Origin: Acidobacteriota bacterium
GTDB taxonomy: Bacteria > Acidobacteriota > Blastocatellia > Pyrinomonadales > Pyrinomonadaceae
Length of the DNA stretch: 29,847 nucleotides
Assembly: GCA_046730815.1 (NCBI GenBank)
Contig: JBKPJS010000581.1
Location: forward strand, 1-29,847
Reading direction: 5' to 3'
The position numbers and the translations under genes are program-made. The notes below the pieces were generated by a model. The model was not told the DNA's origin, ran no database searches, and saw only the letters and a list, made by a program, of their open reading frames with translations. Positions 12,378-28,969 of the stretch are shown piece after piece. The number at the start of each line of letters is the position of its first letter. Positions within the stretch are counted from its first letter, which is position 1.

Positions 12378-12406
12378 ATTATAAACAAAGCCACAAAGAC
12401 GCACAA
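12378..12406 (-). promoter_or_regulatory. Sigma70-type promoter for lpdA operon: TTGTGC-N17-TATAAT
   Basis: Perfect TATAAT at 12383-12378, exactly 17 nt from TTGTGC at 12406-12401. Confidence 0.65.
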
Positions 12407-12418
12407 AAGGCACAAAAA
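12390..12418. repeat. Single arm (half element) of family B (CACAAA unit)
   Basis: gccacaaagac-gcacaaaag-gcacaaaaa. Confidence 0.75.
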
Positions 12419-12444
12419 GGGCGCGCTCGGTAAAGAGCACGCCC
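12413..12444 (-). terminator. Intrinsic terminator of TonB-dependent receptor 1
   Basis: GGGCGUGCUC-uuuacc-GAGCGCGCCC followed by UUUUUG on the minus strand. Confidence 0.8.
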
Positions 12445-15739: not shown

Positions 15740-15958
15740 ACAGTTGAATGCGCCTCAGCCCCTCGGGCTGCGCCCGTGTTTAGCCAGTTTTGTGAGCAAC
15801 TAAAATCAATTCAGATGGAATGTTGCAAAGGGCTTGCAAGAACGCGATTTCTATCACGCTTAGCTACCCTTTCGCAAGCTTTTACTTACCTTTCAAACCA
15901 TTAAATGCCATTAAATATCTGTGACACGCATTAGGCTGATTCGTTTTCCCGTAGGACT

Positions 15959-16006
15959 GCCGCAAAGAAACACAAAGGCACAAAACATTTTGTGCTTCTT
16001 CGTGGC
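15959..16006. repeat. Palindromic tandem-unit element, family B
   Basis: gccgcaaagaaacacaaaggcacaaaa ... ttttgtgcttcttcgtggc, directly after the paralog 2 terminator. Confidence 0.75.
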
Positions 16007-16008
16007 TG

Positions 16009-16050
16009 AAAAAAAACCCGGGTAGACTTGAATATCAAGCCTACCCGGTT
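16009..16050 (-). terminator. Intrinsic terminator of TonB-dependent receptor 2
   Basis: CCGGGUAGGCUUGA-uau-UCAAGUCUACCCGG followed by G and eight U on the minus strand. Confidence 0.88.
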
Positions 16051-25595: not shown

Positions 25596-25672
25596 ATCTG
25601 TAAATCTTGCCAATCTTGAAATCCTGTCAACTCTTTTTGACAGGATTACAGGATTTGCAGGATTTACAAGAT
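25596..25672. repeat. Palindromic tandem-unit element, family D, arms in opposite order to 8090-8157
   Basis: atctgtaa-atcttgcca-atcttgaa-atcctgtcaa ... ttgacaggatt-acaggattt-gcaggattt-acaagat. Confidence 0.85.
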
Positions 25673-28494: not shown

Positions 28495-28534
28495 TTGAGT
28501 TGTCCTGATTTGGCGACTGGGGATTACGCGCTTA

Positions 28535-28563
28535 ATCATAACCACTAAGACACAAAGGCACAA
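28535..28563 (-). promoter_or_regulatory. purF promoter candidate TTGTGC-N17-TATGAT
   Basis: Left arm of the palindrome read on the minus strand. Confidence 0.6.
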
Positions 28564-28589
28564 AGTAAAACACCAAAATGAATGTTACT

Positions 28590-28618
28590 TTGTGTCTTGG
28601 CGTCGTGGTGGTTATGAT
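28590..28618 (+). promoter_or_regulatory. Cytochrome c promoter candidate TTGTGT-N17-TATGAT
   Basis: Right arm of the palindrome; GTG start lies 6 nt after the -10 hexamer. Confidence 0.6.
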
Positions 28619-28624
28619 TGCACC

Positions 28625-28969
28625 GTGATTCGCGGCCTTTCAATAGCGTTCTTTATCGTTGGTGGCCTGTCGCCGTTTGCGATCGCCGGCGACAACGCCC
28701 GCCCCGCGTCGCAGTTATATCGACGTCATTGCGTCTCCTGTCACGGCAACGATGGCCGGGCAAAGACTTCGAAGGGAAAGTTTAGCCATGCGCGCGACCT
28801 TTCCGATGCTCAGTGGCAGGAGGAGGTCAGCGACGAACGCATCTTCAACTCGATCATGAATGGACGAAACGTACGCGGCAACATGCCGGCGTTTGCCGAC
28901 AAGCTTAACCAAAACGAGGCCGAATCGCTGGTAGATTTTGTGCGCCGGCTGAAGCGTAACGGGCAGTAG
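28625..28969 (+). CDS. Periplasmic class I monoheme cytochrome c
   Basis: Signal-like N-terminus, LYRRHCVSCHGNDG (CxxCH), I.NG...NMPAF (distal Met). The track start (28592) is inside the repeat; GTG 28625 preferred. Confidence 0.88.
   Translation: MIRGLSIAFFIVGGLSPFAIAGDNARPASQLYRRHCVSCHGNDGRAKTSKGKFSHARDLSDAQWQEEVSDERIFNSIMNGRNVRGNMPAFADKLNQNEAESLVDFVRRLKRNGQ

What the first reader, a model, noticed from the sequence alone, without database searches (positions are those of the whole stretch)
28535..28625. A palindromic repeat that forms a mirror-image pair of divergent promoters
Seen: each arm of the family B palindrome reads TTGTG(C/T)-N17-TATGAT pointing outward (minus 28563-28535; plus 28590-28618). 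On the plus side, a GTG with no Shine-Dalgarno sits exactly where transcription would start (28625), implying a leaderless cytochrome c mRNA. On the minus side, a 34-nt leader with AGGA precedes the TTG that gives PurF a canonical-length propeptide. The lpdA promoter uses the same TTGTGC-N17 geometry from another family B arm. Inference: family B arms are portable outward-facing -35 modules, so the element can seed or rewire promoters, here for an essential purine gene. The other two family B copies (15959, 26991) lack a matching -10, as expected if activity depends on flanking sequence.
Basis: partly seen in the sequence, partly recalled or inferred. Interest (0 to 1): 0.72.

Follow-up and report, generated by a model that had tools for sequence, protein, structure and literature searches.

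The report
Palindromic repeat between two native promoters
A short mobile hairpin repeat in a soil Acidobacteria genome sits exactly between the conserved -10 boxes of two back-to-back promoters (purF and a leaderless cytochrome c), so its arms now fill both -35 positions; this is a local co-option of the kind known from Neisseria Correia elements, not a general property of the repeat family.

Summary
Arms 28534-28568 and 28585-28619 form an 86-nt palindrome, and each arm reads TTGTGY-N17-TATGAT outward.

Orthologous spacers from about 170 related Pyrinomonadaceae genomes and soil contigs support both promoters:
- The purF -10 box sits 39-42 nt before a conserved TTG start in 85 of 117 distinct spacers.
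- A TATGAT-type box lies 5-11 nt before the cytochrome c start, so that mRNA is probably leaderless.

Three points need correction:
1. The -10 boxes are ancestral. They are not part of the repeat. The outgroup has TTGAAA-N17-TAAGCT at the same purF position.
2. The element is not canonical family B. It belongs to a shorter-armed sister subfamily (B'), whose TTGTGY lies 17 nt from a terminal TA.
3. The "portable -35 module" idea fails genome-wide. TTGTGY-N17-TAnnnT occurs 30 times against 25 expected. Correctly spaced -10-like boxes are equally common beside arms facing gene starts and gene ends. Canonical elements sit a median of 8 nt after stop codons.

In B'-bearing orthologs the four hexamers are more conserved than the spacers and loop, while arm pairing decays. 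That fits weak -35 use at this locus. However, many orthologs have no TTG at that position, so the -35 may be dispensable.

Verdict: a real pair of divergent promoters with a co-opted repeat, a new member of a known kind.

The parts
28534..28619 (.). 86-nt palindrome: the B' repeat element (28541-28612) plus the two flanking native -10 boxes
28541..28568 (-). Left arm of the B' element. Read outward on the minus strand it ends in GTGGT. It is a clear member of subfamily B'.
   Evidence: 25-27-nt matches at 92% identity at five other loci; 25.2 bits, E=6e-5 against a leave-out profile
28585..28612 (+). Right arm of the B' element. It is degenerate, but homologous sequence is shared by most in-group orthologs.
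28535..28540 (-). purF -10 box, TATGAT
   Evidence: TAnnnT lies 39-42 nt before the start in 85 of 117 distinct orthologous spacers (TATCAT 36, TATGAT 27, TAAGCT 21)
28558..28563 (-). -35-like TTGTGC inside the left arm, 17 nt from the -10 box
   Evidence: invariant in 7 of 7 aligned B'-bearing orthologs
28590..28595 (+). -35-like TTGTGT inside the right arm, 17 nt from the -10 box
   Evidence: 5 of 6 columns invariant
28613..28618 (+). cytochrome c -10 box, TATGAT, 6 nt before the start codon
   Evidence: a TATGAT-type box lies 5-11 nt before the start in 55 distinct orthologous contexts; found in 87 of 127 loci
28625..28969 (+). Small class I cytochrome c with a signal peptide and a GTG start. 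The mRNA is probably leaderless.
   Evidence: Pfam PF13442 and PF00034; orthologs have ATG at the homologous codon
27070..28494 (-). purF (amidophosphoribosyltransferase), TTG start, 12-residue propeptide before the catalytic Cys
   Evidence: Pfam; TTG start in 95 of 117 orthologs
28503..28506 (-). Shine-Dalgarno AGGA, 8 nt before the purF TTG
   Evidence: CAGGACAA is conserved
28519..28527 (-). Conserved GTAATCCCC at the start of the predicted purF leader; function unknown
12378..12406 (-).

Best explanation
The palindrome is one copy of a short-armed sister subfamily (B') of this genome's abundant family B hairpin repeat. The outward arm consensus of B' is CTTTGTGTCTTnGTGYCTTTGTGGTTA. Family B is a REP/MITE-like, lineage-restricted mobile element. 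This copy fills the whole 72 bp between two native, back-to-back sigma-70-type promoters. One promoter drives purF from TATGAT on the minus strand. Its predicted start is near 28528, giving a leader of about 34 nt with AGGA and a TTG start codon. The other drives a leaderless cytochrome c mRNA from TATGAT on the plus strand, with the GTG start 6 nt after the box. Both -10 boxes are older than the repeat. Because B' arms are about 3 nt shorter than canonical arms, their inner TTGTGY lies exactly 17 nt from the element's end, so both -35 positions now read TTGTGC and TTGTGT. These hexamers probably act as weak -35 elements at this locus. The promoters are mainly driven by the -10 box and the G two bases before it, which is why the -35 region tolerates turnover. 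What is shown: the geometry, the age and positional conservation of the -10 boxes, the family membership and the genome-wide statistics. What is inferred: the transcription start sites and any contribution of the arms to promoter strength.
For: Geometry is established. The purF -10 box: TAnnnT peaks 39-42 nt before the start (8, 21, 38 and 18 of 117 spacers, against a background of 1-3 per position), whatever sequence lies upstream. Deeper-branching relatives have a textbook TTGAAA-N17-TAAGCT at the same distance from the start and from the GTAATCCCC motif. The cytochrome c side: a TATGAT or TATCAT box lies 5-11 nt before the start in 55 distinct contexts (ATG 44, GTG 8, TTG 3), which leaves no room for a Shine-Dalgarno sequence. 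Genome-wide, TAnnnT peaks 6-9 nt before start codons (67-74 per position against about 40). Those candidates also show T at -24/-23 and G two bases before the hexamer, which indicates sigma-70-like promoters on leaderless genes in this organism. Leaderless genes were already predicted in 3 of 3 Acidobacteria genomes (PMC3160421). Subfamily membership rests. Among 7 B'-bearing orthologs, 20 of 24 hexamer columns are invariant against 29 of 60 spacer and loop columns (Fisher p=0.003, not corrected for phylogeny). Arm complementarity decays to 23-29 of 34, with uncompensated mid-arm changes. The constraint therefore tracks the promoter hexamers rather than the hairpin.
Against: There are no transcript data. 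TTGTGY matches the -35 consensus at only 3 of 6 positions, and the consensus scanner does not call either site. At the purF -35 position, orthologs carry at least five unrelated sequences. Some have no TTG at all (GTTCAT 9, TAAACT 4, AGACTC 4). Only 26 of 55 cytochrome c contexts have TTG at N17/18. The -35 may therefore be dispensable and the arms mere passengers. The spacer segment CTTAGTGGT is also invariant, so part of the conservation may reflect recent ancestry or something other than promoter function. On a tree built from 600 nt of purF, the B'-bearing spacers fall in two clades separated by lineages with the ancestral promoter, so the history is not one simple insertion.
Confidence: 0.65

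Rival explanations
1. One reading: family B arms are portable, outward-facing -35 modules that seed or rewire promoters wherever a -10 box lies at the right distance.
For: Three sites in this window have the geometry, against 0.26 expected. B' arms place TTGTGY exactly 17 nt from a terminal TA. A few other B' arms are followed by TAnnnT and a nearby start codon, for example on C298, C41 and C422.
Against: Genome-wide there are 30 sites against 25 expected. For canonical arms, TAnnnT at N16-18 occurs beside 11 of 131 start-facing and 13 of 180 end-facing arms (p=0.83), matching the local base composition. For B', the figures are 9 of 37 and 4 of 28, not significant. Elements sit a median of 8 nt after stop codons and are depleted in divergent spacers (12 of 93, against 22-27% expected). 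The most common adjacent -10-like box abuts the arm end, which gives spacings of 11 or 20 nt. lpdA orthologs with the arm have spacings of 17, 17, 11/20 and 11/20.
Confidence: 0.12
2. The promoters are real but depend only on the -10 box. The repeat is a neutral passenger that landed in a tolerant spacer, and its TTGTGY contributes nothing.
For: At least four unrelated repeat families, or no repeat at all, occupy the same position in orthologs while the -10 boxes stay fixed. The G two bases before the hexamer is conserved (GTTATSAT) and is enriched in the genome's leaderless candidates.
Against: The TTGTGY hexamers are invariant or nearly so in B'-bearing orthologs while the neighbouring mid-arm and loop vary. 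Both arms keep the 17-nt spacing, or 18 nt in one case.
Confidence: 0.25
3. The palindrome is a regulatory DNA element (an operator for a dimeric regulator, or a cruciform) that co-regulates purF and cytochrome c.
For: It has strong dyad symmetry centred between the two promoters. The inner and outer arm segments are conserved symmetrically.
Against: The same arm sequence occurs at dozens of unrelated loci, mostly after stop codons. Orthologs lose one arm or the loop, or replace them with other repeats, and keep only the -10 boxes. Mid-arm pairing is not maintained.
Confidence: 0.05
4. purF is transcribed from a promoter inside the cytochrome c 5' coding region (TTGAAA-N18-AATCAT, 28643-28614, minus strand), so the palindrome would be an RNA hairpin in a long purF leader.
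For: This is the only site the consensus scanner reports in the region.
Against: The TTGAAA lies in codons that are not conserved in the closest orthologs, for example L013. Its -10 is simply the complement of the cytochrome c box. The conserved purF box 39-42 nt from the start explains the data better.
Confidence: 0.03

Closest known systems
Correia repeat-enclosed elements (CREE) of Neisseria
   Same: Both are short, abundant, inverted-repeat non-autonomous elements. CREE can generate a promoter at either or both ends, together with flanking sequence, and so alter expression of neighbouring genes (PMC2649163).
   Different: Many CREE lie 5' of genes (71 of 113 in strain FA1090) and their promoter activity has been shown experimentally. 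Here the family is mostly stop-codon-proximal. Only this copy, and perhaps a few others, has promoter geometry. The -10 boxes are native, and nothing has been tested. There is no sequence similarity to CREE.
Hybrid promoters formed by outward-facing -35 boxes at IS element ends (IS1, IS2, IS10 and ISAba1-type activation; from general knowledge and the review PMC9330008 listed)
   Same: A mobile element supplies a -35 hexamer at the right distance from a resident -10 box.
   Different: IS elements are autonomous, kilobase-sized and act at one end. Here a hairpin of about 72 nt replaces both -35 regions of a back-to-back promoter pair.
REP / REPIN / BIME extragenic palindromes
   Same: High copy number, 20-40-nt arms forming a hairpin, positions just after stop codons and within operons, and lineage-restricted bursts.
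   Different: The arms carry no GTAG or CGTC terminal tag (PMC3733652 abstract). No Y1 (RAYT) transposase was found in the 87%-complete genome. The arms are built from 8-10-nt sub-repeats.
Leaderless mRNAs of Actinobacteria and Deinococcus
   Same: The -10 box lies 5-9 nt before the start codon and there is no Shine-Dalgarno sequence.
   Different: This copy uses GTG, whereas most orthologs use ATG. The start site has not been mapped.

Membership tests
sigma-70-type promoter (both sides) | -10 hexamer of the form TAnnnT at a fixed distance from the gene | tested here: met
   TATGAT on both sides. The position is conserved in 85 of 117 purF spacers and in 55 distinct cytochrome c contexts.
sigma-70-type promoter (both sides) | -35 hexamer resembling TTGACA, 16-18 nt upstream | tested here: inconclusive
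   TTGTGC and TTGTGT lie at 17 nt but match only 3 of 6 positions and are not called by the scanner. They are conserved in B' orthologs, but many orthologs lack TTG at this position.
sigma-70-type promoter (both sides) | Mapped transcription start about 7 nt after the -10 box | not testable with these tools
   The genome is an uncultured MAG and no transcript data are held.
leaderless mRNA (cytochrome c) | Start codon at or within about 3 nt of the start site, with no Shine-Dalgarno sequence | tested here: met
   This is met for geometry only. There is a 6-nt gap from the -10 box to the GTG and no Shine-Dalgarno sequence. The gap is 5-11 nt in orthologs. The genome-wide peak appears.
family B hairpin repeat of this genome | Match to the canonical arm profile (GCCACAAAGAAGCACAAAARGCACAAAA) | tested here: not met
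   Neither arm hits at E<1 with the refined profile, which gives 402 arm hits elsewhere in the genome.
subfamily B' (AACCAC...GTGGTTA type) | Match to a B' arm profile built without the window's copies | tested here: met
   The left arm scores 25.2 bits, E=6e-5. The right arm scores only 10.6 bits but pairs with the left at 86%.
REP/REPIN mobilised by a RAYT transposase | GTAG or CGTC tag at one end, and a Y1 transposase gene in the genome | tested here: not met
   Neither consensus contains the tag. PF01797 gave no hit in G000, which is 87% complete, so absence is not proven.
MITE (Correia-like) | Terminal inverted repeats, a target-site duplication and a cognate transposase | tested here: inconclusive
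   The inverted-repeat structure and the variation in copy number among congeners are met. TA is frequent at the element boundaries. No empty site was compared and no transposase was identified.

The most novel reading that the evidence does not exclude
In this Pyrinomonadaceae lineage, the space between fixed -10 boxes is a recurrent landing pad for several unrelated hairpin repeat families (B', A, the CCTGTAATCCTG family, the GCAAAGAC family). Each one re-supplies or erases the -35 region, so repeat turnover would be a main mode of promoter evolution. On this reading, B' is a shortened derivative whose TTGTGY sits exactly 17 nt from its terminal TA, making it a ready-made cassette of a -35 box plus half a -10 box.
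Probability: 0.2. Interest if true: 0.6.

Novelty: new member of a known kind. Interest (0 to 1): 0.38.

Why it matters
Promoters of Acidobacteria are almost uncharacterised, and this group is largely uncultured. This locus gives a comparative, sequence-only definition of two promoters, one of them leaderless. It also shows a naturally replicated experiment: dozens of lineages keep the two -10 boxes while different mobile hairpins replace everything between them. If the arms do contribute -35 function, this is an Acidobacteria counterpart of Correia-element promoter creation, acting on an essential purine gene. If they do not, it shows that these promoters are essentially -10-driven. Either result would help annotate start sites and promoters in soil metagenomes.

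Tried and rejected
- Rfam scan of the window: no family matched.
- Consensus promoter and terminator scan: it calls neither arm. It reports only a non-conserved minus-strand site inside the cytochrome c gene and no terminator.
- Treating the copy as canonical family B: rejected after the refined profile missed it. This led to defining B'.
- My first idea that the purF -10 box had shifted from an ancestral TAAGCT, now TAAGCG at 28529-28534: rejected. Distances to the start codon and to GTAATCCCC show that TATGAT occupies the ancestral position.
- Hairpin selection: no compensatory changes between the arms.
- RAYT search: negative.
- Enrichment tests for -10 boxes beside arms, by flank position and by orientation to genes: negative.
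- A purF tree to polarise the insertion gave a patchy pattern that I could not resolve. My automatic labels in that script misclassified the B' spacers as 'other', so I read them by eye.
- Loci L188 and L207, from unpublished genomes G044 and G050, were left out.

Full report
**Setting.**
The window is the largest contig (C581) of an 802-contig, 4.68-Mb, 54% GC assembly that is 87% complete. Record titles of the closest purF loci name uncultured Pyrinomonadaceae (Blastocatellia, Acidobacteriota) from soil.

The finding lies in the 130-nt spacer between two genes:
- purF, on the minus strand, carries GATase and PRTase domains.
- A small cytochrome c, on the plus strand, matches PF13442 and PF00034 and is followed by a 174-aa gene.

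**The observation.**
- The palindrome has 35-nt arms, 86% complementary, with a 16-nt loop.
- As DNA it folds far better than shuffles, with z = -7.5.
- TTGTGY-N17-TAnnnT occurs three times in the window against 0.26 expected. The three sites are the two arms and the lpdA site.

**What the repeat is.**
Canonical family B is a very abundant hairpin. Each arm is 28 nt and is built from sub-repeats of about 9 nt. The loop is about 15 nt.
- A profile search finds 402 arms at E<1 and 114 paired elements.
- Using my own ORF-based gene calls (4171 genes), elements lie mostly in tandem (62) and convergent (19) spacers and are under-represented in divergent ones (12).
- They sit a median of 8 nt after the upstream stop codon, against 52 nt before the next start.
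- The exact 17-mer core occurs 114 times here and 41, 26 and 15 times in three congeners. It was not found in 14 other congeners or in 12 other genera searched. This looks like a young, lineage-restricted burst.
- No Y1/RAYT transposase was found and the arms lack the GTAG/CGTC tag of classical REPs. I therefore call the family REP/MITE-like without assigning it to either.

The copy at 28535 does not hit the canonical profile. BLAST of its left arm finds 25-27-nt matches at 92% identity at five other loci. These define a sister subfamily, B', whose termini read AACCAC...GTGGTTA and which has 67 arm hits.
- Against a profile built without the window's arms, the left arm scores 25.2 bits (E=6e-5). 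The right arm scores only 10.6 bits.
- B' arms are about 3 nt shorter than canonical arms. Their inner TTGTGY is therefore exactly 17 nt from the terminal TA.

**The promoters are real and older than the repeat.**
I collected orthologous purF-cytochrome c spacers from three sources: congeners, GTDB species representatives and soil metagenome contigs found with a 22-nt purF 5' motif.

On the purF side, in 117 distinct upstream regions:
- The TTG start is kept in 95.
- TAnnnT piles up 39-42 nt before the start, in 85 of 117 regions. The background is 1-3 per position.
- The hexamers are TATCAT (36), TATGAT (27) and TAAGCT (21).
- Deeper-branching lineages carry a textbook TTGAAA-N17-TAAGCT at that position.

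The sequence at the -35 position is not conserved. It reads TTGAAA (22), TTGTGC from B' arms (10), GTTCAT from family A arms (9), GTGAAA from another repeat (8), TTGTTT (5) and several others.

On the cytochrome c side, 55 distinct contexts have a TATGAT or TATCAT box 5-11 nt before the start codon (ATG 44, GTG 8, TTG 3), which leaves no room for a Shine-Dalgarno sequence. The window's GTG aligns with an ATG in close orthologs.

Genome-wide, TAnnnT is enriched 6-9 nt before start codons. Those candidates show T-rich positions at -24/-23 and G two bases before the hexamer. This agrees with earlier in-silico predictions of leaderless genes in Acidobacteria (PMC3160421).

The mirror symmetry of the outer 8 nt of the palindrome is therefore simply two native -10 boxes pointing in opposite directions.

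**Do the arms matter here?**
Seven distinct B'-bearing orthologs were aligned. Twenty of the 24 hexamer columns are invariant, against 29 of 60 spacer and loop columns (p=0.003, not corrected for shared ancestry).

Arm-to-arm complementarity has decayed to between 23/34 and 29/34. The mid-arm changes are uncompensated, while both the inner (-35) and outer (-10) ends stay symmetric. This pattern fits selection on promoter hexamers rather than on a hairpin.

Three points count against a necessary role for the arms:
- About a third of purF orthologs and half of the cytochrome c contexts have no TTG at the -35 position.
- The conserved G before the -10 box suggests promoters that are mainly -10-driven.
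- The spacer segment CTTAGTGGT is also invariant.

**The family-wide claim fails.**
- In canonical arms, the inner TTGTGC plus 17 nt lands on the terminal GGC.
- The outer TTGTGC plus 16-18 nt shows TAnnnT at the rate predicted by position-specific base composition: 28 observed against about 29 expected.
- That rate is the same for arms facing gene starts (11/131) and gene ends (13/180).
- For B' arms the figures are 9/37 and 4/28, not significant.
- Genome-wide the exact pattern occurs 30 times against 25 expected. Three of the 30 sites happen to be in this window.

At lpdA, the TATAATGCCCGG box and the TTG start are conserved across the genus with or without the arm. The four arm-bearing orthologs have spacings of 17, 17, 11/20 and 11/20.

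**History.**
The right arm, or sequence homologous to it, is shared by most of the in-group. The left arm and loop are present in a subset and are replaced by other repeats or deleted elsewhere.

On a tree built from 600 nt of purF, the B'-bearing spacers fall in two clades separated by lineages with the ancestral promoter. I cannot tell recombination from repeated insertion.

**Comparison with known systems.**
The closest analogue is the Neisseria Correia element, which can generate a promoter at either or both ends (PMC2649163). IS-end hybrid promoters work the same way at one end only. This case is a new member of that kind, in a phylum where promoters are barely described, and it remains untested.

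**Verdict.**
- The promoter and leaderless readings are well supported by comparative evidence.
- The "portable -35 module" generalisation is not supported.
- Interest is moderate.

Noticed in passing
L013-L172 (orthologous purF-cytochrome c spacers): The spacer is a hot spot for repeat insertion. At least four unrelated hairpin repeat families (B', family A GCCGCGGATGAACGCGG, a CCTGTAATCCTG family, a GCAAAGACGCAAAG family) occupy it in different lineages, while both -10 boxes stay fixed.
   Followed up: partly
window 25599-25668: A palindrome of the CCTGTAATCCTG family has a perfect TTGACA at the inner end of each arm, facing outward. In some orthologous purF spacers the same repeat puts TTGACA about 17-18 nt before a weakened cytochrome c box (GATGAT).
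   Followed up: no
window 28519-28527 (minus): A 9-mer, GTAATCCCC, lies at the start of the predicted purF leader. It is conserved in the in-group and in part of the outgroup, 6-8 nt after the -10 box. It could be a discriminator or initially transcribed element, or a regulator site.
   Followed up: no
L056, L058-L061, L065, L084: In another Pyrinomonadaceae clade purF itself looks leaderless: TTGAAAGCC...-N17-TAATCT, then 6 nt, then a GTG start.
   Followed up: no
G000 whole genome versus congeners: The canonical family B 17-mer core occurs 114 times in this genome and 41, 26 and 15 times in three congeners. It was not found in 14 other congeners searched. This points to a recent, lineage-restricted expansion.
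   Followed up: partly
window 12411-12444 (minus): The intrinsic terminator of the TonB-dependent receptor gene runs straight into the lone family B arm upstream of lpdA. The terminator and the arm are shared by the four closest orthologs.
   Followed up: partly
window 15957-16050: A family B hairpin after the second TonB-dependent receptor gene is followed by a separate canonical terminator (a GC-rich stem and a T-run on the minus strand). This suggests that family B hairpins are not themselves the terminators.
   Followed up: no
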